Below are positions 22,661 to 64,000 of a stretch of 64,000 bases of DNA, piece by piece (position 1 is the first letter of the stretch; every line of letters begins with the position of its first letter). This DNA comes from an uncultured virus (IMG/VR IMGVR_UViG_3300049791_000126) (Duplodnaviria; Heunggongvirae; Uroviricota; Caudoviricetes): IMG/VR virus record IMGVR_UViG_3300049791_000126. One strand, written 5' to 3'. The notes under the pieces are model-generated. The model was not told the DNA's origin, searched no databases, and saw only the letters and a list, made by a program, of their open reading frames with translations. The position numbers and the translations under genes are program-made.

Positions 22661-22663
22661 TCA

Positions 22664-25948: not shown

Positions 25949-25951
25949 GCC

Positions 25952-28008: not shown

Positions 28009-28088
28009 TCCATTCACCGCAACGGTTTAGCCGGGTTCGTCAGGACCGCTAGAGCGCTCTGAAGGGAGCGCAGAGGTCTGTCCTGACG

Positions 28089-30188: not shown

Positions 30189-30222
30189 TTGAAGAAAACC
30201 GCCCGCTAGGGTGATTCGCTCC

Positions 30223-30259
30223 GAGCCCGGTATCTCTGGAAAACCAGAGACCCGGGCTT
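30223..30259 (+). other. Intergenic stem-loop upstream of the putative major capsid gene
   Basis: GAGCCCGG-TA-TCTCTGG-AAAA-CCAGAGA-C-CCGGGCTT. Confidence 0.7.
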
Positions 30260-30331
30260 GGGGTGTTGTTCGGGCCAATGAGGAACCAGCCTCAATAAAA
30301 ATGGAAGCCCGCGCAAAAGGAAGATCTCATC

Positions 30332-43743: not shown

Positions 43744-44567
43744 ACATTCGCGACCTCTTCACAAACCTCGACCGCTCCGCCATCGAGAAATGGTGCCGAG
43801 CCCAGACGCAGGTCGTCTACCTCGGCGACCACCGAGCGCTCTGTCGCGTGCTCGGCAAATACCTGATGTACGTCGACACGCGCGATCTCTCGCTTGCTCC
43901 CCACATGATGATGAACGGGTTTTGGGAGATGTGGGTGACGCAAGCGATCGTCGACTACGTGAAGCCCGGGATGCGCTGCATCGACGTGGGCGCGAATTGC
44001 GGATACTACACGCTGCTCCTCGCTGATCTCGTGGGAGACAAAGGCAGCGTGCATGCCTACGAGCCGCAAACCGCTGCGGAGAAGTTACTCGCTCCGACAT
44101 TGGTCATCAATGGGTTTGGAGACGGTCCAGTAACTGTTCAGCGCGGGGCGGCCTCCGACACTACGGGTCAGGTGCGTAAGTTGTACGTGATGACAGAATT
44201 CATGGGGAGCGCAGCACTGGAGCCCAGCGGCGTGCTCAAGGCGCAGGAAAAAACAGTCATGACTTGCCGCGTTGACGACCATCAGGATGTGGTTCACTTC
44301 GTGAAGATCGACGTGCAGGGACACGAGTTGAGAGTACTCGCTGGAATGCAGAAGACCATCGAACGAAGCCCCAAAATCGCCATCGCCATGGAGTTCTCGC
44401 CGAGCGAGCACGAGAGCCCAGCCGCCGCGCTCGAGACCATCCGCGGGAGGGGGCTGAAAATCCAAGCCATCGGCACCGATGGCCAGGTGCGCCCCATCTC
44501 ACTCGAGGAGGCGGCCAAGCCCGACACGGGCGACCACCGGATGCTCTGGCTCACGAGGGAAGCGTGA
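43740..44567 (+). CDS. FkbM family SAM-dependent methyltransferase
   Basis: IDVGANCGYYT, AYEP, FVKIDVQGHELRVLAGM. Confidence 0.9.
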   Translation: MNIRDLFTNLDRSAIEKWCRAQTQVVYLGDHRALCRVLGKYLMYVDTRDLSLAPHMMMNGFWEMWVTQAIVDYVKPGMRCIDVGANCGYYTLLLADLVGDKGSVHAYEPQTAAEKLLAPTLVINGFGDGPVTVQRGAASDTTGQVRKLYVMTEFMGSAALEPSGVLKAQEKTVMTCRVDDHQDVVHFVKIDVQGHELRVLAGMQKTIERSPKIAIAMEFSPSEHESPAAALETIRGRGLKIQAIGTDGQVRPISLEEAAKPDTGDHRMLWLTREA

Positions 44568-44770
44568 CTGCTCGGTGCCCCCATTGCGGGCAGCGCGTCA
44601 CCCCAGAGTTCATACGCGCGGAGCGTCGGGCCTGGTGGTGGATGCTGTGCGCGCTGGCGGTCTTTTTCTTGGGGACCTTAAGTTGGGCCGCGTTCGTGCG
44701 GCCTGATGAATGTAGCCCGAAGAGTCCTTGCATGTGGTTTAGGCATCTATTCGTATCAGAGCCCAAGAAC

Positions 44771-44800
44771 TTGACCCCGCCCACCGATCCCCGGTAGCCT
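44771..44800 (+). promoter_or_regulatory. Sigma70-like promoter
   Basis: TTGACC-N18-TAGCCT, 8 nt before the ATG at 44809. Confidence 0.55.
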
Positions 44801-44808
44801 TCCCGTCG

Positions 44809-45189
44809 ATGGCCATTGCAATCGCAAGTCGTGTCGCTCTGAAGGTAACCGGTAGTAACCTCGTGCTCGGCCAGGTGACAGCCCAGCCGCCGGTGTTCGG
44901 GGTGAGCGAGACCGCGGGCGGCGGCCCGTACGTCATCGACTGGGAGAACGGCAAGCAGAGCACGGTACCGCTCGGGGTGCTTGACGAGCTCTTCGCAGCC
45001 GACGTGACGACGCTCGGCCTGATGGGCAAGGTCGTGGTCGTGACGGACGCTTCCTCGTCCTACAACGCGGTCGTGGTCGACGCCTACAACCGCAACGCCA
45101 CCAAAGAGTGCGTGCTCGTCAAGACACTCCAGAACGGCACGTACTACGAGCTCGACGCGACGACAGTCGAGCTCGTTACGGGTCTCTGA
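44809..45189 (+). CDS. Hypothetical beta-rich protein
   Basis: Own promoter; GC3 bias. Confidence 0.75.
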   Translation: MAIAIASRVALKVTGSNLVLGQVTAQPPVFGVSETAGGGPYVIDWENGKQSTVPLGVLDELFAADVTTLGLMGKVVVVTDASSSYNAVVVDAYNRNATKECVLVKTLQNGTYYELDATTVELVTGL

Positions 45190-45201
45190 TCCGTCTCAGG
45201 C

Positions 45202-45543
45202 ATGGATCTCGACGCCCGCAGCTCGTGCCTGAGGGCCGTGCGGCTCGTCGCGCGGAGCGCGCGCTTGTGCTCGGCGATTGAACGCGGCTCGGAGCAGTAC
45301 AAGACGGCTGCCGACTCTGCTGAGCGGATGCTCGGTCGCGCGGACGGCTACTTCACTGAGATGCGCGTGGGGCACGCAGCGCATGAGCGTGTGGTGCGCG
45401 TGGTGCTCGCGGCGCTCGTCGAGGCGCGGACGGTCGTGACGTGGCTCACGAAGGAGACGCCGCACCCCGACGATCTGTCGCTGCAGGCGGAGAAGATCGA
45501 GCGGGCGATCGAGCGGGCACAGGTAGTGCAGGGTGTAGAGTAA
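45202..45543 (+). CDS. Hypothetical helical protein
   Basis: Co-oriented ORF. Confidence 0.55.
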   Translation: MDLDARSSCLRAVRLVARSARLCSAIERGSEQYKTAADSAERMLGRADGYFTEMRVGHAAHERVVRVVLAALVEARTVVTWLTKETPHPDDLSLQAEKIERAIERAQVVQGVE

Positions 45544-45715
45544 CGCCTCGGAAAAGCGAGTGCCGATCCAGATAGACGGACAAGTAGACGCGCGCATTAC
45601 GGGCAAAGAGATCGGCCCCTTCCTCACCCAGCTCCCAGATTTGCTCAGCGATAGCATCGAAAGACGCCTCATCGGTAGAGGCATCGATCTCGATTGAGAA
45701 TTCTTGGGTCATGGG

Positions 45716-46000
45716 TCAGTTCGCCGCGAGGTGGTAGGCCTCGTAGAGGCCCTCGCTCTTGAGCCACGCATCGTAGCGATCTTGGGCAGAGATCCAGAAA
45801 TCAGCATCGATCCCGAGCGCTGCGGCTAGGCGATGAGCGAGATCCGTGGTGCATGGAATTTCTTCGTCAATGAAGCGATGGACCTCAGTTACGTCTATGT
45901 TCATAGAATGGGCAAGTTCGCTGACCGTGATGTCACGTGGCAGCAAGAACCCTTTGACAAGAAATATTCCAGGATGCGGAGGTTGAGGGGGGTTAGCCAT
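45716..46000 (-). CDS. higA: HigA family antitoxin (HTH)
   Basis: PPHPGIFL...ITVSELA...LAAALGIDADFWISAQDRYD. Confidence 0.9.
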   Translation of the reverse strand: MANPPQPPHPGIFLVKGFLLPRDITVSELAHSMNIDVTEVHRFIDEEIPCTTDLAHRLAAALGIDADFWISAQDRYDAWLKSEGLYEAYHLAAN

Positions 46001-46005
46001 GGCTT

Positions 46006-46314
46006 TTAGTCTCCATAGTGATCGGGGCTGATGGTTACGTCGTAGGGCTCATTGCGAATCGGGTCATACCGAAACAGCAAGCGGGCTCGGCTAGAAATGT
46101 CCATGGAGAACCACCCGGCAAGCTTGCCTTTCAGTTTATGCAAGCGGAAAAACTGGAAGGCGCGAACCTGGTCGAGGTTGGTGGAGTTCTGCAAGGTCTG
46201 CAGAGCGAATTTTGCGTTAGCCCAGTGCTTGGGCGGGAGCAATTTACGGGCTCGGTCGCTATTTATTCCGGCCAATATGTCAGCGGCCCCTAAGTCAACA
46301 TACGATTGAATCAT
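46006..46314 (-). CDS. higB: HigB/RelE family toxin
   Basis: GGAGG RBS before ATG at 46314; FRLHKLKGKLAGWFSMDISSRARLLFRY...DHY; upstream of higA. Confidence 0.85.
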   Translation of the reverse strand: MIQSYVDLGAADILAGINSDRARKLLPPKHWANAKFALQTLQNSTNLDQVRAFQFFRLHKLKGKLAGWFSMDISSRARLLFRYDPIRNEPYDVTISPDHYGD

Positions 46315-46797
46315 GACGGATCTCCCTCCCTGGGTCGAGGAAGACGTCATACTGAACCAACGTATAGTAGTCAAGCAAGCAAGATCTGTCGACTCACCCT
46401 CGCTTTTCACCTTCGCGAACCGCTTGTGCAACCTCGCGATCCATGCCTCCTGCCAGACCCGCTTTCGCTCCTTGTCCCAACCCTGGAAGAAGCCCGTCCC
46501 CGCATGGAACTGCCGGTGGTGCCGCGGGCACTTTGGGATCGTGAGCCGGTCGTGCACCCGGATCCCCATGCCGCCCCGGCGCTCGCCGCGTCCGTGCTTC
46601 AGGTGATGAGCCTGCGTCCGGTCATCGAGCGGGCACACGCAGCAGGGGAGCGTGCGGATCCAGGCGACGTACTCTTCGTCTGCGAGGCCGAGCTTCGCGC
46701 GCTTCTCAGCGATCTTCTTTTTGCTCGCGGGACGGAGCGGCGTGTAGCGCTTGAGGTAGCCGCCGGGGGCGAGCTTGGTTTTGCGCTTGATGGTCAA
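46315..46797 (-). CDS. DUF968/HNH-like Zn-binding domain, in frame with higB (no stop between)
   Basis: EYVAWIRTLPCCVC...QAHHL...IPKCPRHHRQFH. Confidence 0.75.
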
Positions 46798-47085
46798 GCT
46801 CGGGGCTCCTTCCTGTGCGTGCGTACGAACTGTTTTTTATTTTGCCAGTCACGCATCACGCCGTAGTCATCGATAGTGGACACCGCGCACCACCCCACGT
46901 GAGTGATGCGTTGCTTCACGTGGGGGAACCGCCTGGCGATCCACAGGTCACCGATTCTCAGATCTGAAGCCGAAGCTTGGCGCGACGTGTAGCGCGCGTG
47001 GCGCTTGGATTTTGTCGTGTTCTGTGTCGGGTCTCGATTGACAGCAAAGGGATGAAAGCGCTCAGCGCGAAAGCCCAGGTGGAGG

Positions 47086-47772
47086 TCAGATCCGTCGGCG
47101 ACGAAATGAATTCCCGCCCCCCTTGCGGCGCTTTTGATGCGGCCAAAAACGAGGAGCGCTTCGGCTGGAAGGAATATCTCCGTTGCCACCAGCCGCTGAA
47201 GGTGTCGGATCAGTACCGTGTAGTTGAACGGGCTCTTGTTGAGAGTTTTCTGGATCGAAAAATTCATAGGGAACGTGTTTCCTGTCGAGGTTAGTCAGCT
47301 GGAAACCGGCAAAACGGTCAGCAAAAGAACGAAGGCGACGGACCGATCGGTCGATTTCTACTGCGGTGACGAAGCCTCGCTCGGCGAGGTTTACGACGAA
47401 TCGTAGGAGCGCGTTGTAACCAACGAGCCTTCGCCCGCGATCTCCACGTGCCCTGAACACCTGAGAAGGATACAGCGGAGGCGCGATCTCTGCGGGAGAC
47501 TCGGCGTACTGCTTTTGGAGACGAGCGGCCATGCTCGTCACCCATGCCGCCCGCATGTCGGTGGTCCAGCCTTCGAAGTAAGCTCGTCCGACTTGCCAGT
47601 GCTCCAGATGCAAGCGACAAAGAGGGAGCGTGTTCTCAGCCTGAGAAGCGACCAGTACCCGAGGGCGATGTTTCGCGGTAGACGTGACGACATTGCAGAC
47701 TAAGCAGGGCAGGCGCCGCACCCAGGCTAAATAGTTGAGCTCTGCGCGCGAGCGTTTGGTTTGGAGGTGCAT
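47086..47772 (-). CDS. Second, degenerate DUF968-like protein
   Basis: YLAWVRRLPCLVC...LPLCRLH...FEGW. Confidence 0.6.
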   Translation of the reverse strand: MHLQTKRSRAELNYLAWVRRLPCLVCNVVTSTAKHRPRVLVASQAENTLPLCRLHLEHWQVGRAYFEGWTTDMRAAWVTSMAARLQKQYAESPAEIAPPLYPSQVFRARGDRGRRLVGYNALLRFVVNLAERGFVTAVEIDRSVRRLRSFADRFAGFQLTNLDRKHVPYEFFDPENSQQEPVQLHGTDPTPSAAGGNGDIPSSRSAPRFWPHQKRRKGGGNSFRRRRI

Positions 47773-47776
47773 GGGG

Positions 47777-48505
47777 CTATTCGGCTTCGCCAGCCGAAGG
47801 AGCCAAGGCGACCTTGATCTGCCGCTTGAGATCTCGGATGTGAGCGATCAGACGAAGGGTGTTCAGGGGGCTCATGGCGGCAATGAATCGCACGTCGGCT
47901 TCGGCTTGCTCGACAGAACGATCATCCGCGTCGCCGCCGTCATCGCCGTCGCGCAGGTACACATCAGGCTCGATCTCGAACAGCTGGAAGCCGCCCTTGG
48001 CGAGTGCGGTATGTCCGGGTTTGTCCACGCACACGAATCCCACGTGCACGATCGCGCCGCAACCAGTCGTCGAAGACCAGGGGCCAGGGGTTGCGCGCTT
48101 GCAGAGCGTTTCGATGCTATTGAGTTCGGAGTCAGTGGGAGAGAGGTTCGGGGATGGCGCCTGGCGGCCATCGGGAAACAGGGCCTGGTTTGGATCGAAC
48201 CCATGCTCGCGGAGCATGATCGCGTAGGCATCGGCGCGCCGCTGGTTGCTTTCGGCTTCGCGCACGAGGCAAGCCACCTGGTAAGGCGACATGAGCGTCG
48301 TGAATTTCGCATCGGCGTCCGTGATCCAGGTCACGTCGTGCTCGCTCCCCGAGCACAGGGGGAGATCTTGGCCCTCGATGCGGATGCATCCAGTGAATTC
48401 GAGCTCGCGCCAGCCACCGGTCGCGGCGTGGCAGAGACGAAGAATGTCCTCGTAGGAGAGGAGCGGGTGAGTTTTTGTGTCGACGCCCTGTAGACTTGTT
48501 GCCAT
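47777..48505 (-). CDS. Protein with an Ead/Ea22-like C-terminal domain
   Basis: KRATPGPW...ADVRFIAAMSP..TLRLIAHIRDL. Confidence 0.6.
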   Translation of the reverse strand: MATSLQGVDTKTHPLLSYEDILRLCHAATGGWRELEFTGCIRIEGQDLPLCSGSEHDVTWITDADAKFTTLMSPYQVACLVREAESNQRRADAYAIMLREHGFDPNQALFPDGRQAPSPNLSPTDSELNSIETLCKRATPGPWSSTTGCGAIVHVGFVCVDKPGHTALAKGGFQLFEIEPDVYLRDGDDGGDADDRSVEQAEADVRFIAAMSPLNTLRLIAHIRDLKRQIKVALAPSAGEAE

Positions 48506-48556
48506 CACGGTGATAGTAAACTGATGGCAATGGAAGTCCAGCCAGAAAGAGGCGCT

Positions 48557-49054
48557 ATGACGATCTGGGCATTCGATACGGAATTCGATGAGGATGGCAA
48601 AACCATCGAGCTCATCAGCATCGGCCTCGTCTCGAACGAAGGCCATGAGTACTACGCCGTCAGTCGAGAGTTCGATCCGCTGCACTGTAACGACTGGGTG
48701 CGCTCGAACGTCCTCGGGAAACTCCCGCCAGCCGGCGACCCGCTCTGGAAGCCGCGCGCTCAGATCCGCGACGACATCGTCGCGATCGTCCGAGCTAGTT
48801 CGTTGCCCCCGAAATTCTGGGCGTACTACGCGGACTACGACTGGATCGTGCTCTGCCAGCTATTCGGGAGGATGGTCGCCCTGCCACCCGACTGGCCGAG
48901 ATACTGCCGAGATCTCCAGCAACGCCTCGATGACCTCGACTTTCGCTCGTCGGATTTGCCCGATCAGCCAGCGGGCACCGAGCACAACGCGCTCTACGAC
49001 GCCCGCTGGGTGATGAGCGGGCTTTTGTATTTGGACAGGTTCTTCAGCCGATGA
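48557..49054 (+). CDS. DEDD 3'-5' exonuclease (RNase AS/DUF5051-like)
   Basis: FDTEF...LISIGLV...WAYYADYDW...HNALYDARW. Confidence 0.85.
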   Translation: MTIWAFDTEFDEDGKTIELISIGLVSNEGHEYYAVSREFDPLHCNDWVRSNVLGKLPPAGDPLWKPRAQIRDDIVAIVRASSLPPKFWAYYADYDWIVLCQLFGRMVALPPDWPRYCRDLQQRLDDLDFRSSDLPDQPAGTEHNALYDARWVMSGLLYLDRFFSR

Positions 49055-50515
49055 ATCCGTCCCCCAAGACGCGCTTCTATCAGGTACGAGTTCCGAAGCG
49101 GAGCGAGTGGGCTCGGATCTGGATCACCGACGATGGGTGCATTTCGATCCTAAGCGACTACGGTGATTTTGGGTACTGGTTCGGGTCGCCGGGCTGCGAG
49201 TTCAGGAGGTTCCTGACGCGCTGCGGGCCGGACTACCTGATGAGCAAGTTCAAGAATGGCGAGGAAGAGTTCGACGAGAACGCCACGCGACGCAACGCTC
49301 AAGAGATGGTCCTTCGTGCCCGCCGAGAGCGAGAGATCGATAAGGAGACCGCGCGTGACGAGTGGGATGCCGTCTGCAACGTCGATTGGTCGGACGAGTA
49401 TTCGCGCTCGAGGTGGTACTTCGAAGAGACGAAGCTAGTGGATTGCGCGACGAGCGACGTGCTTGAGTTTTGCGTGCCGATGCAGGTGCAGATGTTCGTG
49501 AAGGAGATCTGGCCGCTCTTCGTCGCTCAGCTGCAGGCTGAGCTCGACGCCGAGTCTGCGAGCGCTCACCCAGGATTTACCGACTGACTTTTCCCAGACC
49601 TAACAGGATCCCCGAATGAACGTCTCCCAGCTGAAAGCCCTGCTCGCCAAAGTCTCCGACGAAACCGAGATCGAGGTACACCTCGACATGCTCGACGACG
49701 AAGATCCCATCATCGGGACCGTGAAGAGCGCTTCCCTTCAACTTTCAGTCGACAAGGAGTCGGTGCTCGTGATCGGAGCGGTCGACGCGCACCCGGAAGA
49801 CAGTGACGAGGAGGAGGAATAAATATGGCCGATCGAATTCGATTCAAGTGCCCGTGCTGCGCCTCCGGGCACGACCGTGGATTTGTTGACGGCGTGAACA
49901 CATTCCGCTGCCTCGGGTGCGGATACATCGGGCACGGGTTTCACCCGGACCCAGAGACGGACCGTTCGTTGCTTGCGGAGCACGAAGCCAATAACGCTTT
50001 GAATCGGAAGCTGGGGGTGCCCGAGGTACCGCTCGGCGTAGATCCACTGAGCTTTGGTTGTTAAAAATGAAGCCCCGAGTTTGGATCAGGTTCGACGAAG
50101 AGTTGCCGCCGGAGGGTGTGATGGTGATGACGAAGATCGATGATGCGCGCGGAGTCCGCAACGAGCAGCGGCTGCGCCGCAGCGGTTCGATGCTGCTTGG
50201 AGGCGGCATGTACGTCTACTACCAACCGACGCATTGGTGTCACCTGGACGAGGAAGAATGAAGCCCCGCGTTCCGACGCGGAAAGAGCGCGCCGTACTCC
50301 GCGCCCGCGACGCCCTCAAGCGGAACGAATCCCGTCTCCTCGAGCGCTTGCAGTCAGCTCAGGAGGCCCTCGGCGACGACTGCTCGCACCCGGTGATCTT
50401 TCGCTACCAGTGGCAAACGAAAGGCTCCCAAGCGAACTTCGTCACCGGCGAGCGCTGCGTGCTATGCGACAAGCGCCGGTCCTTCGCGGGGCGCGGACGG
50501 TGGAAGAAGGGCTGA
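49051..50515 (+). other. Five small hypothetical ORFs (49051-49587, 49616-49822, 49825-50064, about 50067-50261, about 50258-50515)
   Basis: Co-oriented, closely spaced or overlapping. Confidence 0.65.
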
Positions 50516-50529
50516 CTCACCCCTAGAAA

Positions 50530-50559
50530 TTGACCCGACCTCGCCCGCTCAGGTACCCT
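50530..50559 (+). promoter_or_regulatory. Sigma70-like promoter
   Basis: TTGACC-N18-TACCCT, 7 nt before the ATG at 50567. Confidence 0.5.
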
Positions 50560-50566
50560 TCATGGC

Positions 50567-51676
50567 ATGCCCCGTCCCCGCCATCGCCCCAACCGCCTCC
50601 CGGTCGCCCCCCCTCCGCTACGCCACCGGGTGCACTCGCCAGTGAGCGCTGGTGCTGGTCGGGAGAGTTCCTTGGACCGCGTGCGGCGCTTGGCGCGCGA
50701 GCATCGAGTGGCGGAGAAACCGTTCGATCCGGAGAGGCGGGGGACGTGGCGGGGTAGCTCCCGGGATCTCGTCGTGAATCCACGTCAACGGCGCAATGGC
50801 AAGGGGTCAGCGTCGGCGCAAGACCTCTTGGGCGACGTAACGGCTGTGCTGGACACGGCTCTGTCCCCCGATCACGACAAGAAAGAAATCGTGACGGGAT
50901 CGATTCTTGTGGGATGGGACCGTAGCCCCGATGACTCGTCGCTCGTCATCGCCGTCATACCGTCATACACGCGCCCGAACGAAGCCGAAGCGATCGAGAT
51001 CGCTACCGACTATGCGGTGGAGATGAAGTGGTTGCGCTCGAAGGACCCGCGCCAGCCAGATTACGTGGTCGAAGTAACTGGACGAGACATAGCTGCCCGA
51101 GAGCGCTTCGAGGGCATCCAGCAAGGCAGCTTCTACAGTATCGACGGCTCGTCGTACCGAGATGTTCATCGGGACGATGGCGGTGACTGGTGGGGATCAG
51201 ACTACGCGCAGGGCAGCGATTATTCAGGCGGCACCGTCACCCTGAACAACTACAACCAGCTCCTCGAAATGGCCAATGAGTCGGGATGCGACTGCTATGA
51301 GACCATGTCTAGCGGTCATGGCGGATACCACATCTTCTTCAACGTCTATACGACGCCCGACGAGATCGTGGAAGCGTTAGCCGCGCTCGATGACTACCCA
51401 TCCATAGACGACGAGTCCCTCTCTGAACTCGAGCAAGAGCAATCAGAAGAAGCCTGGAACAACTGGGCAGAGAGTGAATTTCGTAAGGGCCTGGAAGCGA
51501 AGTTTACGGGGGACGCGAGCGAGGTATCTGATGAAGATCTGTATGCCTGCTTCCACGAAGCCATGGAAGACTCCAACTCCTACTGGGAAGATCAGCAGAG
51601 AAGCGGCATGTGGGTCGACATCAAGCGCGTGCTCGCGAAAGTGACCGAGCCTCCGTCTGGTTTCGTCGAGGAATAG
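50567..51676 (+). CDS. Protein with a basic N-terminus and an acidic body
   Basis: MPRPRHRPNR...NPRQRRNG, then a D/E-rich domain. Confidence 0.75.
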   Translation: MPRPRHRPNRLPVAPPPLRHRVHSPVSAGAGRESSLDRVRRLAREHRVAEKPFDPERRGTWRGSSRDLVVNPRQRRNGKGSASAQDLLGDVTAVLDTALSPDHDKKEIVTGSILVGWDRSPDDSSLVIAVIPSYTRPNEAEAIEIATDYAVEMKWLRSKDPRQPDYVVEVTGRDIAARERFEGIQQGSFYSIDGSSYRDVHRDDGGDWWGSDYAQGSDYSGGTVTLNNYNQLLEMANESGCDCYETMSSGHGGYHIFFNVYTTPDEIVEALAALDDYPSIDDESLSELEQEQSEEAWNNWAESEFRKGLEAKFTGDASEVSDEDLYACFHEAMEDSNSYWEDQQRSGMWVDIKRVLAKVTEPPSGFVEE

Positions 51677-52225
51677 ATGAAGCAGCGTGACGCAGAGAAG
51701 CTCGGCAAGGCTACCGAAGCGCTGCTGGCGCGCTTCCGCGCCGCTGTCGACAAGCTCAGCGCGCGCGAAAAGATTGCCCTAGCCGCCCTCGATCCCCTCG
51801 CGACCATCAACGAAGGGCTGGAGAAGGATGTCGAGAAATGGAATGAGCTCGCGAGCGATCTCGACCCGGACGCAGAAGTCGCTCCCGTCATGGATGCCCC
51901 AGCGATCGATCTCGATGATCTGACCACCACGATTGAAGGCGCCTTCGAGGCGGCTCATTCTACGTTGGAAGAGTCGATCGATCTCTTCGAGGACCTCGCC
52001 TCCCGCGCGAGCGACTATGAAGAGTCTGAGGAAGAGGAAGAGGACGACGGGGAGGTGGTCTACGCGTGCTCTTGCGATCACCCGCGCTGCGCGGCGGAAG
52101 GTCCAGAAAGACCGACCGACTCCGGGGCGCAGCAGGCTGCTCGTGACGCGGGCTGGTTAGTGGTTGACGAGGGAAACTACTGCCCGAAGCATCGGGACCA
52201 GGCGCGGTCGGTGCCACTGGACTGA
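51677..52225 (+). CDS. Acidic coiled-coil protein with a C-terminal Zn finger
   Basis: CSCDHPRC...GW...YCPKH, similar to the finger in 38674-39357. Confidence 0.75.
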   Translation: MKQRDAEKLGKATEALLARFRAAVDKLSAREKIALAALDPLATINEGLEKDVEKWNELASDLDPDAEVAPVMDAPAIDLDDLTTTIEGAFEAAHSTLEESIDLFEDLASRASDYEESEEEEEDDGEVVYACSCDHPRCAAEGPERPTDSGAQQAARDAGWLVVDEGNYCPKHRDQARSVPLD

Positions 52226-52229
52226 CGCG

Positions 52230-52807
52230 GTCTCAGCTTACATCGGCGCTGAGCTGCCTCGTCGCGCGCTGCCTGAGGCTTCGTCTCGGCTTCCATCGGC
52301 GCCGAGCAGCCTCCACACGCTTGACGCCGTTGATCTTCGCAACGAACGGCGCGACTGGTCTCGGTTTCCATCGGCGCCGAGCAGCCTCCACACCCAGCTC
52401 GCCCACGGCATACTGGGCGCCATAACGGGTGTCTCGGTTTCCATCGGCACCGAGCAGCCTCCACACCTCACAACGACCCCTCAGAATGAACGCGAGCTGA
52501 GTCGTCTCAGTTTCCATCGGCACCGAGCAGCCTCCACACTTGCTGCCGCTTGTCGTGCAGGTGCTTGGGTATTTGGTCTCAGTTTCCATCGGCACTGAGC
52601 TGCCTCCACACGTGCAAAAGTAGATCCATCACCAAATACCGAGGGAACCCGTCTCAGTTTCCATCGGCACTGAGCTGCCTCCACACCTCAGGCCTCGTCT
52701 CAGTTTCCATCGGCACTGAGCTGCCTCCACACCCTCCAGCGTCAGGGCGCTCGCAGGCAGTTCGTCTTCGTGTCTCAGTTTCCATCGGCACTGAGCTGCC
52801 TCCACAC
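52230..52807 (-). CRISPR. CRISPR array, 9 repeats and 8 spacers, no cas gene in window
   Basis: 36-bp repeats (+ consensus GTCTCAGTTTCCATCGGCACTGAGCTGCCTCCACAC) start at 52230 (degenerate), 52283, 52358, 52431, 52504, 52576, 52651, 52697 and 52772. Spacers are 17, 39, 37, 37, 36, 39, 10 and 39 bp. The degenerate end at low coordinate implies minus-strand transcription. Confidence 0.95.
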
Positions 52808-52968
52808 AGGTCTAGTTGTCACAGAACAATTCCGCCTACTTACATGGCGGTTTGCGAGCGGTTCGAAAATCTACCCTGCCCATTCGCGTCGGGCATCGGA
52901 TTTCCCGGTTTATTTGCATCTAGTTCCCCATCGGCACCGCGGCTCTCGCGATCACGGTGCAGACGCAG
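52808..52968 (-). promoter_or_regulatory. Putative CRISPR leader
   Basis: Lower-GC non-coding 160 bp next to the conserved end of the array. Confidence 0.6.
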
Positions 52969-54081
52969 TTAGCCAATCCTAAACACCGTATCCGGCGGCA
53001 CGACGAGCGAGCCCCCAGCAGTCAGCGTGCCCGAGAACTCACCGAGTCGCCCCTTGCCGTGATAGCTGATGGCCTCTACCTGCCCGAATCCCCAGAGCTC
53101 GGTCAGGACTTCGAAGGCAAGCGGTTTGTCTTTCTCAACTCGGAAGTGGATGTCGTTGATGGTGATGGTCATCAGCTCGGGCGGCGGAGTCGGCTGCGCC
53201 GCGGCTTTGAGCTGCGCTACTTCCGCGAGAAGCGATTCAGCTAGGTCAAGCGCGCTGCTTATTTGGTCACGGCAATGACCAGCGCGGGCGTAGGATATGT
53301 GTCCAAGCCCCGCCTTAGTGAGGTACTCGGCCTGCTTCATCGCGTCCCGGAGAGTACCCGTGAGAAGCGAGTGATCGCTGGCAGGTTTCGACTCCGCAGC
53401 GGCCGTGAGCTGCGCTACTTTTTCGAGCAACGCGAGCACCCCCGTATCGTACTCGGTGCCGTTCAGGCGCACGAAGAGCATGCGGCCGGCGGAATCGATG
53501 AGCAAGCCCGTCGGCGCGCGCAGCATGGCGCGGAGGGCTTCGGCTTCGGGGTGGGCGGAGAGATCGACCTCGGCGACGGCGAAGAGCTGCCATAGATCGA
53601 CATTGAGTCGATCGATGAGGGCGTCCAGGTGCCGGCCTAGGTGGTTTAGTGGGCCGTGTTGCAGCTCACCAGTGCGGAGCGTGGTGACGAGCGCCTTCAC
53701 GGTCAGGAGCGCGTCGCGGAATCCTTGGTCGTAGCCGTGGTCTTTTTCCAACCGGCGGCGCGTCAGCAGCTCGGTTCTCATCGCATCGTATTTCGATCGA
53801 ATGCGCCCGAATGCCTCGAGAGCATTCTCATATAAATTCGAGAGTGCGTAGGTGACGAGCTCGAAGTCTTCGGGGGTGGATGTGGCTGTGGTGTGTTCGA
53901 CGGGCTGAATTTCAGCCGCACGATCGCGTTGTTTATGTTCAGCGTGAATGACGCGCGCGTCCTCGACGGGCACATCCTCCGCCCATGCGGTGTGGAGGTA
54001 CCCGTGCAACCTCTTCGGGAGCTCATGGAGTTCGTGGTTCGTCACCTCGACGACCCACTTATCGAATGGAGTTCTGGTCAT
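52969..54081 (-). CDS. Helical protein with a C-terminal multi-ubiquitin-like (beta-grasp) domain
   Basis: ATGA overlap at 54078-54081; last 67 aa MTITIND...LAFEVL...ISYHGKG...SGTLTAGGSLVV...FRIG. Confidence 0.6.
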   Translation of the reverse strand: MTRTPFDKWVVEVTNHELHELPKRLHGYLHTAWAEDVPVEDARVIHAEHKQRDRAAEIQPVEHTTATSTPEDFELVTYALSNLYENALEAFGRIRSKYDAMRTELLTRRRLEKDHGYDQGFRDALLTVKALVTTLRTGELQHGPLNHLGRHLDALIDRLNVDLWQLFAVAEVDLSAHPEAEALRAMLRAPTGLLIDSAGRMLFVRLNGTEYDTGVLALLEKVAQLTAAAESKPASDHSLLTGTLRDAMKQAEYLTKAGLGHISYARAGHCRDQISSALDLAESLLAEVAQLKAAAQPTPPPELMTITINDIHFRVEKDKPLAFEVLTELWGFGQVEAISYHGKGRLGEFSGTLTAGGSLVVPPDTVFRIG

Positions 54082-55588
54082 TTGGTGGCTAGCTTCAAGT
54101 GGGGTGGAGGAGCGGGCTCGGTGTCCCGAGCGCGGAGGTCGGCGAGTTGTTGTTCGAGTTCGCAGATACGGGTGATGTCTTCTGCGGCGTGGGGGTATTC
54201 GGTGCCCCAATCTACAGTGCCTTTGGTTACGATCTCTAGCCCAAGTGGAGCAAGCAGAGATCTCAGATCCTGCAACGTTGCAGGCCTCGTTTCGGTTTCT
54301 GTTCGGACGACTAGGTTACTTTGCGCTAAGCGCGCCGAGATCTCCTCGGCAAGTGGAAGTGAAGACAAGATTGCGGGCCTTTCATACGCTGCCTTTCGCT
54401 CGGTACTGAGCTCGCGGCAGAACGCCTATCGCCCCCTCACTCCCCTCCACGAGTCCGTCGTAAACCTCCCAGCCGATCGAGATCACCCGAGGTGAACCGA
54501 GCGCTTCCACGTCGCCATTGTCGCTGACCTTCCCGCGCGTCGCCCCGCACTCGCAGATCCGCACCGATTCGACGAGCTTCACCACGTCGTCGCAACGCGT
54601 GCAGTTGAGCAGCAGCATGGGCCGGCGGGTCATGGCGTCACCGGAGCCTCGTGCATTCAGCCGAGAGCCGTCCATACGCGCGCTCACGCCGTCCGAGATC
54701 GGGGATCTGGCCGATGCGGTTGTAGGTCCCGACCACGCTCTCCCGCGCGAACCACAGCTGCCGTTCGTGGGGCTTCAGCGCTTCGATCGATCCACCGTGG
54801 AGCGCCACCAAGCGCTTGAGCCAGCCGAAGCGCTCGTCGATACGGGTGAGGCACTCGCGCCGCGCTTCCTCGGCTTTGAGCAGGGCGCTTTGCGGCGCGG
54901 AGAGGATGCGGGCGTTCATGGGTCGGGCACCAGATGCGGGTACACTGGCACGATTCTCCCGAAAACTTCAGCCATGCAATGGGTATCCGGCTTCGCAAAG
55001 CAAACGGAACCGATATTCTCCAGCAGGAAAGCTTATCGGGTGATCCAGTGCGTCCGCGAGCGCGCGTTCGCGTGGACCCTTGCGCTCTTCGTGGCTCACC
55101 GAAGCTTCTCCCGCCTCGAGCAGTACCGATCCACCAAGTCCGAAACCTCCTGGATCGGATCTCCGTGCTCGACCTGCAGCTCGTCGCAGGCAGCCGCCTC
55201 GAGCATGCGGAGCTTTCCGGGAGCGAAAGCTTCCATGGTCAGGAGCACGGCTTCGATCTCGTGGAGGTTCAGGAGGATGCTCTTCCAGAGGCGGCGATCG
55301 GGGTGCGTCGAGAATGGCGCAAAGTGCGCCAAGGCCTCGATGGCATTGCCGATGTCGGTCGTGATCGCTGCTTTAGCCACGGCGCCTCTGAAGCGCGCGG
55401 CGCTGCGCGCGGAGATCGTAGAAGAAGTTCTGGGTCACGTAGCCGAGGAGCACCGGCCAGACGATCATGCCCCGCACGAACTCCATCCGGGTCATGCAGC
55501 CAGAGAGGCACTCGTTGGCGGCGAGCATGAGCAGGCAACCGACGAGCAGGTAGGCGGGGATGATCATGTAGACGAGGGTGATGGGCAT
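54078..55588 (-). other. Small hypothetical ORFs (54078-54368, about 54382-54633, 54638-54919, 55096-55380, 55373-55588)
   Basis: Co-oriented and closely spaced. Confidence 0.55.
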
Positions 55589-55596
55589 GGTGGGTG

Positions 55597-55881
55597 TTAC
55601 AGGTGAGTTGACAAAATTCTTCCCACGAGTTGGATGGTTTTTCCAGATTTGACGACGGCCGTCAGCCGATGCTGGCCATCGATCAATTGGCCTTCGCCGT
55701 CAAAACAGATCCCCTGATGAGTGAGTCGCCATTCCCCTGCCAACATGTCGGCCGTAAAGGCATCCACGAGGCGCAGTGAGATGTTCCTGTTTCGCGGGTG
55801 GTTCTTTGCGAGCCACTTTTCGGCTTGCGAAGGCGTGACAGATTGGGGACCAATTTTCAGAGCTGATTGAGCGCGCGCCAT
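55597..55881 (-). CDS. Short ParB/Srx-like (DGQHR) domain protein, possibly truncated
   Basis: VTPSQAEKWL...NRNIS...W...QGICFD...LIDGQHRLTAVV; only 94 aa. Confidence 0.7.
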   Translation of the reverse strand: MARAQSALKIGPQSVTPSQAEKWLAKNHPRNRNISLRLVDAFTADMLAGEWRLTHQGICFDGEGQLIDGQHRLTAVVKSGKTIQLVGRILSTHL

Positions 55882-55915
55882 GTGGGGTGATTCCTTTGGA
55901 ACGGGATACCGGCTG

Positions 55916-55944
55916 ACACTACGCTAGTGGCACACCGCTGTCAA
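55916..55944 (-). promoter_or_regulatory. Sigma70-like promoter
   Basis: Minus strand TTGACA-N17-TAGTGT; RBS AAGGA before 55881. Confidence 0.65.
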
Positions 55945-57226
55945 CGCTCCGGATCTGCCGGCTTTCCGCGGCGAAGCTCCGCTGACAGCTTCGCCGCATG
56001 CGCGCACTTTCGAAGAAAGTCCTGCTCGGCGCGCGCGAGCGCCACCTCGGGCTTGCCCCCCACGCCATTGCCCCCTTCGTACAGGCTCTCGCCGTGCCCC
56101 TCCTCGAGCCCCTGGAAGTGAATGAACGCCGTCCACTCCGGAGGCACCTCAGTATCTTGCGTGTCGCGATAGATGAGCCGCACGCGGAGCTTCGGGAGCC
56201 GCATCTCCCAGTGCACCTCTTTGCTCGTCGCGTGCGACTGCCGAAACTCCCAGCCGCGCCAGAGGAACTTCTCGCGCGCTGCGATGCGACTCACTCGGGG
56301 AGCTCGGAAATGGTCCCGTCCGTGCTCTTGAAGATCAGTACGATGGAAGAAGTGGCTCCATGAAAGAGAGCCGCGTAGGCGCCTTCCACGCGGCTCGATT
56401 GAGCGACCTCGACTCGATACAAAATCAGTCCCTCCGTGTCGGGCGGCAGATTGAACTCAACGACGTTGCCAGCGCCGACCCCGAACGATCGCCGCATTCC
56501 ATCTTGGAAGACGAAGGTAACGCTCGCCTTGTCAGCAGGAGTGTGAGCGTGAGCGAGGGGTTTGTCGAACATGTTGGAAAAGTCGATCATGGTGACTCCT
56601 GGATGCGTTGGGGACGATATTTGGGTTTGCGCTTGAGGCGGCGCTGCTGGTTGCAGTGCGCGCACCGGCACGAACCATACTCTTGGCCGCGCTCGCCGCA
56701 CAAGAGACAGGGAGAGGCCTTGATCTCGAAGCCCGGAGGGGAGGCGTTGCGGGAGGGAGCTCGAGCCAGATTTTTCGACCGAGGCCGCTCGCGCACGGCT
56801 CTCCTGAACACGCTCATCGAGCCGCTGGGGCCGAGTAGGCTCGCCACGCGCTTGAAGGTCGACACCGACCCCTGCGCTTCCTCGAAGATCTCGGTGACCC
56901 AGTCCTCGGGCTCGTCCTCGAAGCTCATGGCGTCTTGATCTGGGTGGAGTCTCTCTCGCCGGTCACGAAAGATACTTCGGTCCAGATAAATTCGCAGTCG
57001 CTGTCGTCTTCGTGGCCTGCCGGTAGGAAAGGCGCCGTGATGACGTAGCCATTTCGGGCGAAGTCGAATTCGATGCGAATAGGCCGCGCCGCGCGTACGC
57101 AAATGAGGTCGACCTCGACCCTCACCGGATGATCGAGCGTGCGATCGGGGTCTTGGGTTCTGGGGTACCAGAGACACGTCGAGAGCATCTCCCCATCGAA
57201 CGACAGATCTCCAATGGCGGCGGGTT

Positions 57227-58243
57227 TCATAATAGTCCTCGTCCCGGGTTGTCCTGAAACAAATTCGCGCGCCGGATGTAGCCCCGGAAGCTCTCGTAGC
57301 TCTTGTGTCGCGAGTGACTCATGATCTGCCACTCAGGCCGCCCTGCGCGCGCCGCTTCCGTGATGAAGCCTGCCCGGAGCGAGTGCCCGCTGAACTCCAC
57401 GCCCGGTTGGTCGGGGGAGATGTTCGACTTGCGCGCCCACTTCTTCACCACGTCGTTTACTTCCCATTCGGGGATGCGATCGAGCACTAAGCCGCCGTAG
57501 TAGGTGCGCGGAAAGAGCGCTCCCACGATCTCCAGCACATCAGGGCTGGCATCGATCCACGCGCGGAGCGCTGCTACCGGGCAGAGATCGGGGTTCCCAG
57601 CAGGCTCGATGGGGATGAGCTCGCCCTGGCCTTCCTGGTCGGTCTTCGACGACGCAATGGTGAGCTGCACTCCTTCCGGCGTGAACACCGCATGCTTCCG
57701 GTCGAGCGCCGCGATCTCGCTCCTTCGGAGGGCGCCAGCCCAACCGACGAGCAAGAGCGCCTTGTCGCGGATGGCGAGGGGATCGGTCGCGGGCATGCGT
57801 GCCACGATTTTTTCCAAGTGCCGCACGAGCAGCGGGGGCGCCTGCTCGGGGGCCATCTTGAGCGCGTTCTTGATCTTTCGGATATGCTGCTGCACGTGGA
57901 TCGATTGCCGGGGCGGCACGTAGCCCCGCACCTTGTGGTAGTGCGAGAGGGCCGCCATGGCCCGCTCGATGGTGGCGGGCTTCTGGGAGCCGCCTGGACG
58001 CTCGGGATCGGCCAAGTAGGTGACGTAGAGGATCACGACCTGAGGGGAGGCGGGGAGCGCGCGGTGGCCCCAAGCCGTGCACCAGGCATCAAAGCGCTTC
58101 CAGTCGCCCTCGTAGGCGCGCTTGGTGTTGGCAGGCGTCCCTTCCCGTTCGAAGCGGAGCGCGCGCACGTAGAGGCGCTCGGCCTCCACCCGCTGGAGTG
58201 GAGAGAGATGTAAGGGATCGGGGCGGCCGAGAAAATCGCTCAC
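57227..58243 (-). CDS. Cre-like tyrosine recombinase
   Basis: N-terminal NTKRAYEGDW; RDKALLLVGWAGALRRSE, SKTDQ, HSLRAG, SRHKS, YIR. Confidence 0.95.
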   Translation of the reverse strand: MSDFLGRPDPLHLSPLQRVEAERLYVRALRFEREGTPANTKRAYEGDWKRFDAWCTAWGHRALPASPQVVILYVTYLADPERPGGSQKPATIERAMAALSHYHKVRGYVPPRQSIHVQQHIRKIKNALKMAPEQAPPLLVRHLEKIVARMPATDPLAIRDKALLLVGWAGALRRSEIAALDRKHAVFTPEGVQLTIASSKTDQEGQGELIPIEPAGNPDLCPVAALRAWIDASPDVLEIVGALFPRTYYGGLVLDRIPEWEVNDVVKKWARKSNISPDQPGVEFSGHSLRAGFITEAARAGRPEWQIMSHSRHKSYESFRGYIRRANLFQDNPGRGLL

Positions 58244-60515
58244 TACGGGGTAGGATAGCTCTCTTCAGCGCACTCGTCTGCCCGGAACACCACCACCACT
58301 TGGTGATCCATCACAATGACCGGCAGCGTATTGGTCATGGAGCGCAGCTTGAGGGCCTCCTCTGGATCGACCAACTCGAGGATGCCCTGCATCCCCTCAC
58401 GGTCCGCCAGGCCTCGTGCGAATGGGACCTGGCCCTGATCTCGATAGGCTTGCCAGTCGTGGCCAGGCATGAGTATCGCAGCGAGTTCACCGCCGATCAG
58501 GTCATCGACGTTGAGGATCAACAGCGCGCAGGAATCGCTTTTGCCGAGATCGGATGCGCGTTTTTGGAAGTGTGCGATCCGTTCGGCATTTTGATGGAGC
58601 GTAGTCCAGCAATTGTGCTTGCTCACGGCCGTGAGCACCGCGAGCGCTTCGGGGTCATCCAAGATGATGTCGATAGCGGGCATCAGGGTTTCTCCGGGTG
58701 CTCTTCGAGTAGCATCTGCATCACAGTGGTTGCTTGACAGAGGGCGTCGAAGTGGTTGACGCCGAAGGAACAGGACAAGAGCCAATTGGTACCGTCGCTG
58801 TGGACATAGGTCACGCGAACTTTGTCGTCCAGGATCTTGCCGATCGCGGAATACTTCCAGCCGCGCTTCGTCCATTGCTCCAAGATCTCGAGCACGTGGA
58901 CGGCTTGTTCTGGGGTCGGGGTGGGGGTCATACACTGAACCTTTCCCCCGCTATGAGTGCTTCCAGGTGATCGTCGAGCCACTGCTGAGCCCAGTGCTCC
59001 GACCAATTCTCCGCTTCACGACATTCCAGCAGGTAAGGGCCGCCAAAGCTGAACTTCGCAATGCGAGGAACGTGCTGATGGGTTGGATCTTCTGGTCGAA
59101 CGCTGCCGCTCGTCACGCCCAGCGTGACCCCGGGACGCAGATACAGAAACAGCTCCCAATGACCCGGGGACTCCTCGAATAGAGCAATGCGCAAGACGCC
59201 CAAGTTTTGTTTACGCCCGAGTTTGCTGTCGGACCAGGTCATGGCTTCACCAGCCTGAGCTTGCGCCGTAAGATCTGCCCGACCTGCCTCACGCGCGCGA
59301 CGTAGTCGCCGTCGCACTCCTGCTCGTCATCCTCCCAGCCGAGTTCTTCGTCGATCAGCATGCGAAGCTCGCCGAGCGATTTCGAGTCATCCGCGTCGTA
59401 CCCGAATGCCCCGAGCACCTCGTCGCCTTCTGCCTCGTCGGCGGCGTAGAGCACCTCGATCGCGTGAGCGCGCGCTTCTGTCGGCGTCATGGTCTTGTCG
59501 CCGCGCACGGTCACGCGCACGTGGTGAGCGTCTGGGATGAACAGGAGCGCGAGCAATGGGCGGAGATGGTGGAAGTTGTCTTTTGGGTGGGGCATTTAGC
59601 GGTACTCCGGACTTCGCCCCGACCAATGCGCGCCGCACTTTCGACAGGTCGCGCCGTTCGTGGAGTGGCACCAGTCGTGACCGTTGTGGCAGGCGTTAGA
59701 TCCGTAGCTGGAGACAACACCGCACTGACGACATACTCGTCGGTCAGCTGAGTGACACCAATCGTGGCCCTGGAGGCAGCTCAGGGGTGCATTCTCGAGT
59801 TCATAGAGTTCGTCGGTTCTTCTGTACTCATCGGCCATTCAGATCACCACCACTCGGAGTTTGAAATCAGTCACGAGACCTTGCCCGCCTTTGAATACGG
59901 CGAGGTCACTGCTCACGAATACGACGCCGGCGGAGGTTCCTTCCTTGAGCATGCTGGCGATCATCGTCGGCGGCCACTCGGAGATCTCACGCCTCCCGAA
60001 CTTCTCCGCTACGAACAGCTGCGCGCGCCCGCGCTCTGCCCGCCTGAAGAGATATTGCTCCTGCACGTACTCGGGCAAGCCCTTGGCTAGGTCCTGGGAC
60101 TGAGCTTCCCGATCGGTGGTCCACCAGATGAGGAGCTCACGGCGGGGCTTGGGGGAGTCGCTCATCGTTCGGTCGCCTCGAGCGCACCGATCTCAATGAA
60201 CGGCATTTTGACTCGGCACCTTTTCTGCGTACAGGTCACCTCGTGGCCCTGGAGCTTGGCGAAGTAATCACCGATGGCTTCTTCGGGGGATGAGCCTTGG
60301 CCGTATCGGATGTCGCCAGGGCCGCCCTCGCGGCCGCTCACCACGACGCCACCTTTGCCGTTGGTCACGTCGATTCCGGTCAGGCGCGCCGAGAATCGGT
60401 GGCCGCCGATCTTCTCCTCGACGATCAAACTGCAGTCATATACCTCGCAGAACGCCTCCAGTGTCATGTGCGTCAGGCGGGGAGCTTCAGGCAAACGGTA
60501 CAACGTATACTTCAT
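58243..60515 (-). other. Run of small hypothetical ORFs (about 58243-58683, 58683-58930, 58928-59242, 59239-59595, 59596-59838, 59839-60165, 60162-60515)
   Basis: Consecutive overlaps; 59596-59838 has a duplicated GHDWCHS..CxxC motif. Confidence 0.65.
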
Positions 60516-61687: not shown

Positions 61688-61695
61688 GGTCGATG

Positions 61696-63919: not shown

Positions 63920-64000
63920 GTAGGGACCGTAGGCGCGGGCGGAGCAGGTGCACCAGGGGGCGGGCTCGTCACCGCTTTGCGGGTCGTAGAGGCCGGTCTT

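What the first reader, a model, noticed from the sequence alone, without database searches (positions are those of the whole stretch)
52230..52807. Virus-borne CRISPR array without cas genes, with a type V-like repeat
Seen: the minus-strand repeat GTGTGGAGGCAG-CTCAGT-GCCGATGGAA-ACTGAG-AC has a 6-bp stem ending 2 nt before the spacer. No cas1, cas2, cas6 or effector gene is recognisable in the window. Known: a 3'-terminal hairpin in a 36-nt repeat is typical of tracrRNA-independent type V systems, whereas class 1 repeats leave an 8-nt handle after the stem. From memory it resembles Cas12m/Cas12j repeats (unverified). Inference: the virus supplies guides to a host or distant effector, for inter-virus competition or host gene silencing.
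Basis: partly seen in the sequence, partly recalled or inferred. Interest (0 to 1): 0.8.

Follow-up and report, generated by a model that had tools for sequence, protein, structure and literature searches.

The report
Second Cas12m CRISPR array in phage
A soil phage carries an extra CRISPR guide array that was copied, together with a stub of its Cas12m gene, to a new spot in the genome; the gene itself most likely lies just beyond the stretch examined, so this is one more example of a recently recognised kind of phage-borne, DNA-binding CRISPR system.

Summary
The array is real: 9 repeats of 36 nt on the minus strand (52230-52807), leader at the high-coordinate end, 3' hairpin kept by compensatory changes. 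No cas gene lies in the window. Two related IMG/VR phages (G001, complete, 135 kb; G002) have the same leader and near-identical repeats directly downstream of a 488-514 aa Cas12m gene (type V-M; PDB Cas12m E 3.8e-36, PADLOC Cas12u1 5e-48).

The array is not simply cas-less. About 90 nt of decayed cas12m 3' end sit upstream of the leader. The whole ~763-nt block (stub, leader, array) is inserted between two convergent genes that abut in G001. G001's own locus maps about 7-10 kb beyond the window's end. In the one run that holds the window, equal-depth contigs continue the window and carry a cas12m about 82% identical to G001's.

Best reading: a second, ectopic type V-M array serving the phage's own non-cutting (N-E-D) Cas12m against rival phages. 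No spacer target was found. This scan found phage Cas12m loci before on other DNA (19 notes), and a 2026 preprint describes one.

The parts
52230..52807 (-). CRISPR array: 9 repeats of 36 nt and 8 spacers (39, 10, 39, 36, 37, 37, 39, 17 nt). The newest end is at 52807 and the degenerate terminal repeat at 52230-52265.
52808..52875 (-). Leader, homologous to the leaders downstream of cas12m in G001 and G002. The core is 48/60 identical to G001 and 50/60 to G002.
52832..52850 (-). Conserved leader hairpin (CCGCC-loop-GGCGG). The stem changes compensatorily in G002 (CCGCG/CGCGG).
   Evidence: read from the alignment; not tested further
52876..52965 (-). Decayed stub of the 3' end of a cas12m gene (last ~26 codons). 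Both zinc-finger Cys codons are now Arg and the stop is lost.
   Evidence: compared with L001 10623-10700 and L003 7465-7545
52206..52968 (-). The whole inserted block (stub + leader + array + ~24 nt trailer) between two convergent genes that abut with 0 nt between them in G001.
52969..54210 (-). Upstream gene of unknown function (P0001; true start perhaps at 54081), same strand as the array, so read-through could transcribe the array. Homologue of G001 7724-8494.
51677..52225 (+). Convergent downstream gene (P0002). Its last 6 codons and stop lie in the inserted block. Homologue of G001 6998-7723.
63931..63964 (+). Protospacer-like site matched 31/34 by spacer 8 of the relative G001. It lies in a conserved Cys-rich gene on the minus strand.

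Best explanation
The feature is a second, ectopic CRISPR array of a phage-encoded type V-M (Cas12m) system.

Origin. An ancestor of this ~135-kb soil phage copied a block from its canonical locus into the gap between two convergent genes. The block held the last ~90 nt of cas12m, the leader and the array. The gene stub has since decayed, while leader and repeats were kept (shown).

Proposed working (inferred). The array is transcribed from its leader or by read-through from the upstream gene on the same strand. The pre-crRNA is cut into guides that keep the 3' hairpin of the repeat. These guides load the phage's own compact Cas12m, encoded 15 kb or more away, just outside the window. The relatives' effectors have an N-E-D RuvC triad, so by analogy with tested Cas12m proteins this one probably binds PAM-flanked DNA without cutting it and silences it. 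The likely targets are competing phages of the same family.
For: Type and relatives. G001 and G002 have the same leader and a repeat identical at 35/36 (G001) or 28/36 (G002) positions, directly downstream of a 488 or 514 aa gene. That gene matches solved Cas12m (23vw_A, E 3.8e-36) and PADLOC Cas12u1 (5.2e-48 and 1.2e-52).

Repeat geometry. A G.A pair closes a 6-bp helix that ends 2 nt before the spacer, as described for the Cas12m2 crRNA (passages of PMC10442227). Covariation supports the helix.

Ectopic copy. The window is collinear with G001: 1-44567 with G001 89900-135415, and 44752-64000 with G001 377-18453. G001's locus is at 25755-29122. At the window's site, G001's two convergent genes abut stop to stop.

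Stub. Window 52876-52965 aligns to the cas12m 3' end, 57/80 identical to G001 and 51/80 to G002, against 66/80 between the two intact genes. The leader core is 48/60 and 50/60, against 42/60 between G001 and G002.

Effector in the same genome. In run X1 (0.96 of the words of window:51600-54300), a 7868-nt contig at depth 12.1 runs in register with the window's end and stops where G001's array begins. A 23352-nt contig, also at depth 12.1, covers the cas12m gene (171 differences in 953 nt) and ends in the leader or first repeat. A repeat-spacer-repeat contig at depth 12.1 holds a spacer that is absent from the window's array.

Family habit. One search found 86 homologues; six lie on contigs of 126-136 kb. 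All 49 compact ones aligned (435-520 aa) are N-E-D.

Kin targeting in relatives. G001 spacer 8 matches the window at 31/34. G002 spacer 3 matches cas12m genes at 36/38 and 33/38.
Against: The effector gene of the window's own genome was not read. Linking the cas12m contig to the window rests on equal depth and synteny in a metagenome that also holds relatives; 3 of 74 laid contigs are 99% or more like G001. Whether its reading frame is intact is unknown.

No sigma-70-like promoter was found in 52000-53300.

No target was found for any window spacer.

One spacer is only 10 nt, and the last repeat and spacer are truncated, which are signs of erosion.

The contrast between stub and leader conservation rests on small counts and is not significant on its own.

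Binding without cutting is inferred from N-E-D and from other Cas12m proteins; it was not tested.
Confidence: 0.6

Rival explanations
1. The array is a decaying relic: a stray copy of part of the CRISPR locus that is no longer transcribed or used and persists only because too little time has passed.
For: The effector gene is truncated to a stub with Cys-to-Arg changes. There is a 10-nt spacer and a truncated terminal unit. No promoter-like site was found. No spacer target was found.
Against: 8 of 9 repeats keep all 6 stem pairs (the repeat at 52358-52393 has a C.A at pair 18-29), and differences between repeats follow G-C, G-U, A-U compensatory paths. The four leader-proximal repeats are identical. 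The leader is at least as conserved against G001 and G002 as those two are to each other, while the adjacent stub has diverged more. The upstream gene on the same strand can supply transcription.
Confidence: 0.2
2. The array supplies guides to an effector that is not the phage's own: a host Cas12m, or the Cas12m of a co-infecting related phage.
For: Repeats are 35/36 identical between the window and G001, so crRNAs should be interchangeable between relatives. Contigs 99% or more like G001 occur in the same run (3 of 74).
Against: No array with this repeat or its hairpin pattern exists in one genome each of 185,579 bacterial and archaeal species: 0 matches, then 2 single chance matches inside coding-like sequence. 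A cas12m contig of equal depth is present in the run.
Confidence: 0.1
3. The array acts as an RNA decoy (an RNA anti-CRISPR of the solitary-repeat kind, recalled from the literature) that soaks up a rival's Cas12m rather than guiding it.
For: Phage-borne repeats without an adjacent effector; one unit has a 10-nt spacer that is useless as a guide.
Against: 6 of 8 spacers have normal length (36-39 nt) and are unique. A homologous leader and array polarity are kept. No solitary repeats occur elsewhere in the window.
Confidence: 0.05
4. The placement is an assembly artefact: the assembler put repeat-containing sequence from the canonical locus at the wrong place.
For: Arrays break assemblies; the Logan contigs of run X1 stop at the canonical array.
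Against: Both junctions are unique sequence. The stub differs from intact cas12m genes by many non-synonymous changes, so it is not a piece of the canonical gene. An independent set of contigs holds 0.96 of the sampled words across 51600-54300.
Confidence: 0.03

Closest known systems
Type V-M CRISPR-Cas12m (MmCas12m2, PmCas12m; PMC10442227, bioRxiv 10.64898/2026.03.26.714355; passages read)
   Same: 36-nt repeat with a 3' 6-bp helix closed by a G.A pair, 2 nt before the spacer. Single-RNA design: no anti-repeat was found on either strand. The relatives' effector is homologous to solved Cas12m. The N-E-D triad is one of the triads listed for Cas12m clades 3 and 4.
   Different: The loop is 10 nt, not 8. 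The effector clade is smaller (435-520 aa against 577-614 aa for the solved ones) and phage-borne. In the window the array stands apart from the gene and carries only a stub of it. PAM and activity are untested; the flanks seen are CGT, CGT, TTC and CTC, against 5'-TTN or YTN in tested proteins.
MV-1 myxophage type V-M locus (bioRxiv 10.64898/2026.09.14.751636; passages read)
   Same: A phage-encoded Cas12m next to an array, without cas1, cas2 or cas4 and without tracrRNA. No protospacers were found. The phage also has DnaJ, glycosyltransferases, methyltransferases and an integrase, like the window.
   Different: MvCas12m has 610 aa and a D-E-D triad. That report describes one locus, with no ectopic array and no gene stub. 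Whether MV-1 is related to the window's phage was not tested.
Orphan or remote arrays in large phage genomes (PMC12607003, passages read; CasPhi huge phages, recalled)
   Same: Arrays separated from any cas gene on a viral genome, with the suggestion that they serve an effector encoded elsewhere in the virus or the host.
   Different: Here the origin of the remote array can be traced to a copy of the canonical locus that took a stub of the effector gene with it.
Virus-borne mini-CRISPR arrays that use host Cas proteins in inter-viral conflict (portogloboviruses SPV1/SPV2; recalled, not read here)
   Same: A viral array with no adjacent cas genes. Spacers in this phage family match relatives.
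   Different: Those arrays copy the host's repeats. Here no cellular genome with the repeat was found, and the family carries its own effector.

Membership tests
CRISPR array (generic) | Three or more direct repeats of 23-50 nt separated by unique spacers of similar length | tested here: met
   9 repeats of 36 nt. 6 of 8 spacers are 36-39 nt and all are unique; two are short, 10 and 17 nt.
CRISPR array (generic) | Polarity: a leader at one end and a degenerate repeat at the other | tested here: met
   The leader is homologous to those of G001 and G002. The terminal repeat 52230-52265 is degenerate.
Type V-M (Cas12m) CRISPR-Cas | A Cas12m effector gene beside the array | tested here: not met
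   In the window only a ~90-nt stub remains and there is no homologue elsewhere (tblastn best E 1.2; PADLOC 0 of 91 ORFs). Met in the relatives G001 and G002. Probably met elsewhere in the same genome, but that was not read.
Type V-M (Cas12m) CRISPR-Cas | crRNA scaffold: a 3' helix of 6 bp closed by a G.A pair, with 2 nt before the guide | tested here: met
   G12.A35 and pairs 13-18 with 29-34, compared with the description in PMC10442227. The loop is 10 nt, not 8.
Type V-M (Cas12m) CRISPR-Cas | No tracrRNA or anti-repeat | tested here: met
   The covariance model finds the repeat only on the array strand: the 9 repeats in the window and 26 matches in G001. A divergent anti-repeat could be missed.
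Type V-M (Cas12m) CRISPR-Cas | A RuvC triad of one of the Cas12m types, and a zinc finger in the TNB domain | tested here: met
   Relatives only: N-E-D in 49 of 49 compact homologues aligned, with CxxC...CxxC invariant. N-E-D is listed for clades 3 and 4. The window's stub has lost both Cys of the second CxxC.
Type V-M (Cas12m) CRISPR-Cas | Binds target DNA without cutting it; processes its own pre-crRNA | not testable with these tools
   Needs biochemistry.
Virus-borne arrays that borrow a host effector | The repeat matches arrays of the host | tested here: not met
   0 arrays in genome contigs with the strict or the loose repeat pattern. The host itself is unknown, so absence from the collection is not proof.
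RNA anti-CRISPR (solitary repeat units; recalled) | Solitary repeats, or repeats without usable guides | tested here: not met
   A regular array with 6 full-length spacers. No solitary copies in the window.

The most novel reading that the evidence does not exclude
The ectopic block is a selected, separately expressed guide cassette. It sits behind a gene on the integrase side of the genome, so it may be transcribed at another time (for example in lysogens) than the canonical locus.

The clade of ~135-kb soil phages would then wage a silencing war with a non-cutting N-E-D Cas12m, aimed at each other's conserved genes and even at each other's cas12m. The stub shows how phages that lack Cas1-Cas2 multiply and redistribute arrays by recombination instead of adaptation.
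Probability: 0.2. Interest if true: 0.65.

Novelty: new member of a known kind. Interest (0 to 1): 0.4.

Why it matters
The result turns an apparent cas-less viral array into a traceable event: part of a phage CRISPR locus was copied to a second site and kept. That shows one way arrays spread inside genomes that have no adaptation genes.

It also points to a clade of very small Cas12m proteins (435-520 aa) with a conserved N-E-D site on ~135-kb soil phages. This clade could be of use for compact DNA-binding tools and for studying phage-against-phage conflict.

It is also a caution for window-based scans: 'no cas gene in view' can be an edge effect.

Tried and rejected
Whole genome of the window: none held.

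Cluster look-up of ten window proteins, meant to link the window to a contig of known length: the query was not sent because the database is switched off. This could not be done.

RNA evidence: no RNA holder was listed; the only run is DNA kept as contigs.

Rfam: no family matches 51900-53100 at E up to 1.

Promoter scan: 0 sigma-70-like sites in 52000-53300. The host's promoter type is unknown.

Spacer targets:
- INPHARED phages: none for window:52100-53100.
- PLSDB plasmids: one 37-nt match, E 0.04, across a repeat-spacer border, taken as chance.
- The first 22 nt of 3 of the 6 full-length spacers (S1, S3, S4) in IMG/VR: 0 hits each. S5, S6 and S7 were not scanned there.
- All spacers of 15 nt or more against the window, G001 and the G002 pieces: nothing above 14 nt.

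PAM: only 4 protospacer flanks, all from relatives' spacers (CGT, CGT, TTC, CTC), too few and mixed to derive a motif.

Outgroup for the insertion site: G002 has no homologue of the upstream gene, and IMG/VR holds only G001. Polarity therefore rests on the stub alone.

Further family members through the leader pattern: only G001 and G002.

Solitary repeats (a lead from earlier notes): none in the window or in G001.

Cas12j: never returned by any search.

Host: not determined. Polyangiales is only a lead from the MV-1 preprint.

Full report
**Observation.** The stretch 52230-52807 holds nine 36-nt direct repeats on the minus strand, with start-to-start spacing 53, 75, 73, 73, 72, 75, 46 and 75.
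The older ones differ at up to 4 positions, and the last (52230-52265) is degenerate at its 5' end.
- Spacers are 39, 10, 39, 36, 37, 37, 39 and 17 nt, all unique.
- A covariance model built from 31 distinct repeats of the family finds only these nine in the window, plus one 16-nt partial at E 0.07.
- The stem 13-18 with 29-34 pairs in 96.2% of 186 cells. Three of six pairs change on both sides (G-C, G-U, A-U paths). 0 of 500 shuffles reach the covariation score, and slid partners pair in at most 40.9% of cells.
- Folding energy of single repeats is unremarkable.

**What the window is.**
- Pfam and PHROGs name DnaB, ThyX, a tape-measure-like protein, Dam and FkbM methyltransferases, glycosyltransferases, a DnaJ-domain protein and an integrase.
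- The window is collinear, at 55-95% amino-acid identity, with G001, a 135,429-bp IMG/VR record with direct terminal repeats rated 100% complete. Window 1-44567 matches G001 89900-135415, and 44752-64000 matches G001 377-18453.
- The window is therefore about half of a phage genome, permuted relative to G001.

**The system it belongs to.**
- A degenerate form of the repeat hits one IMG/VR record, G001.
- In G001, 23 repeats (25755-27409) follow a leader and a 488-aa gene (27479-28945). Three worn repeats lie upstream of the gene at 28975-29122.
- The protein matches solved Cas12m: 23vw_A E 3.8e-36, 23vu_A E 2.7e-10. It matches PADLOC Cas12u1 at E 5.2e-48, with a model labelled Cas12f at a similar score. 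Pfam and NCBIfam give only weak TNB or TnpB tails.
- A second record, G002 (110.7 kb, 82% complete), has a 72% identical 514-aa protein, the same leader and a variant repeat.
- The protein collection holds 86 homologues at E up to 1e-5, six of them on contigs of 126-136 kb.
- I aligned 60 of the 86 with the query. The 26 dropped rows were the identical cluster, two fragments, P0052, P0065 and P0071-P0091.
- All 49 proteins of 435-520 aa have N-E-D at the RuvC positions. Of the 12 longer ones, 9 have D-E-D and 3 have N-G-D.
- N-E-D is listed among the Cas12m triads of clades 3 and 4 in PMC10442227 (passages).
- Neither Cas1 nor Cas2 is found in G001 or G002.

**The repeat against Cas12m crRNA.** PMC10442227 (passages) describes for Cas12m2 a 6-bp helix (-22..-17 with -8..-3) closed by a G(-23).A(-2) pair. 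The window's repeat has G12.A35 around pairs 13-18 with 29-34 and 2 nt before the spacer. The geometry is the same, with a loop of 10 nt instead of 8.

**The stub and the ectopic site.**
- Upstream of the window's leader, 52876-52965 aligns to the last ~26 codons of cas12m.
- Both Cys codons of the second CxxC are Arg codons, Trp is Gly, and the stop is lost.
- The stub is 57/80 identical to G001 and 51/80 to G002, while the two intact genes are 66/80 to each other. The leader core is 48/60 and 50/60, against 42/60 between G001 and G002. Repeat 1 is 35/36 to G001.
- The counts are small, but their direction fits a stub that drifts beside a leader and repeats that are kept.
- In G001 the homologues of the two genes flanking the window's array (6998-7723 plus strand, 7724-8494 minus strand) abut stop codon to stop codon. 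In the window they are separated by ~763 nt (52206-52968), which is exactly stub, leader, array and a short trailer.
- G001 has no repeat at that site or anywhere outside its one locus.
- The block is thus an ectopic copy of part of a canonical locus. The polarity rests on the stub, because no outgroup was available.

**Is there an effector in the same genome?**
- G001's locus corresponds to a place about 7-10 kb beyond the window's end.
- One public run (X1, soil metagenome, contigs) holds 0.96 of the sampled words of 51600-54300.
- Its contigs were laid on G001 16857-30856 at 80% likeness or more.
- Record 1 (7868 nt, depth 12.1) is in register with the window's last 3.8 kb. It runs on to within a few hundred bases of where G001's array begins.
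- Record 2 (23352 nt, depth 12.1) covers the cas12m gene (171 differences in 953 nt), and its end falls in the leader or first repeat.
- A repeat-spacer-repeat contig of depth 12.1 carries a spacer not present in the window's array.
- Other laid contigs have other depths (2.9 to 4.6).
- I take this as good but indirect evidence that the window's phage has its own cas12m and canonical array. I could not read the contig letters or check the reading frame.

**Function.**
- The array lies downstream of, and on the same strand as, gene 52969-54210, so read-through could transcribe it. No sigma-70-like promoter was found.
- No target was found for the window's spacers.
- The relatives' spacers do show kin targeting. 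G001 spacer 8 matches window 63931-63964 at 31/34 and G001's own copy at 30/34. G002 spacer 3 matches its own cas12m at 36/38 and G001's at 33/38.
- All four matches have a mismatch within the first 10 nt. In PmCas12m a single mismatch within 12 nt of the PAM abolishes activity (passage of bioRxiv 10.64898/2026.03.26.714355). The true targets are therefore probably other relatives, and these copies look like escapes.

**Rivals tested.**
- A host effector is not supported: there is no array with the strict or loose repeat pattern in 185,579 species genomes.
- The metagenome scan found only G001 again, a fragment of its array, and one further variant array on short contigs.

**What is known already.**
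- A September 2026 preprint reports a phage Cas12m locus (MV-1, 610 aa, D-E-D) as the first of its kind (passages).
- A landfill virome paper discusses orphan arrays that may serve effectors elsewhere in the viral genome (passages).
- This scan already holds 19 notes on phage Cas12m loci in at least 15 genomes. They include a second array far from the effector and a kin-aimed spacer at 30/34.
- The present case is therefore a new member of a known kind. Its own points are the gene stub that dates the copy and the uniformly N-E-D miniature clade.

**Limits.**
- The host is unknown.
- There are no RNA data.
- The effector of this genome was not read.
- The supplements of the bioRxiv preprints could not be seen and may list loci of this clade.

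Noticed in passing
L001 12119-12266 (G001 28975-29122), minus strand: Three worn repeats with short spacers (15 and 25 nt) lie between the upstream gene and the start codon of cas12m in G001. G002 has none at that place.
   Followed up: partly
L003 7794-7831 against L003 6110-6147 and L001 11943-11980: Spacer 3 of G002 matches the cas12m gene itself: its own copy at 36/38 and G001's at 33/38. The 5' flanks are TTC and CTC, which would fit a YTN PAM.
   Followed up: partly
window 63931-63964; L001 10185-10218 and 1561-1594: Spacer 8 of G001 fits the window's copy of a Cys-rich gene (31/34) slightly better than G001's own copy (30/34). Both have PAM-proximal mismatches.
   Followed up: yes
window 52919-52939: Inside the cas12m stub a 21-nt patch is 17/21 like the repeat (family D2), and closer to it by eye than the same patch of G001's intact gene (not counted in any call). 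Micro gene conversion or chance.
   Followed up: no
window 52832-52850; L001 about 10575-10600; L003 about 7570-7590: A leader hairpin with loop nTGTAAGTn is conserved in all three loci, with a compensatory stem change in G002. It is followed by a U-rich run, so it may be the cas12m terminator or a binding site.
   Followed up: no
window 52687-52696: A spacer of only 10 nt (GAGGCCTGAG) lies between two perfect repeats. It is too short to guide; probably an internal deletion.
   Followed up: no
window 44567-44752: The window runs straight across the place that corresponds to the ends (direct terminal repeats) of G001, so its source contig is permuted relative to G001.
   Followed up: partly
L009 1262-1603 and L005 59-525 (both ends of G002): G002 carries repeats at both contig ends, on opposite strands of the record. 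The assembly probably broke inside one array of a circularly permuted genome.
   Followed up: no
window 46006-46797, minus strand: One ORF combines a DUF968/HNH-like part (E 8.5e-12) with a HigB/RelE-like toxin part (E 1.8e-5, below the Pfam cut-off).
   Followed up: no
window 29733-29831: A tandem repeat of period 33 (3 copies, 65% matches) inside the 699-aa ORF 28089-30188.
   Followed up: no
L001 10255-10295 against G001 80771-80790: The PAM-distal 20 nt of G001 spacer 7 match G001's own genome exactly, while the PAM-proximal half does not match.
   Followed up: partly
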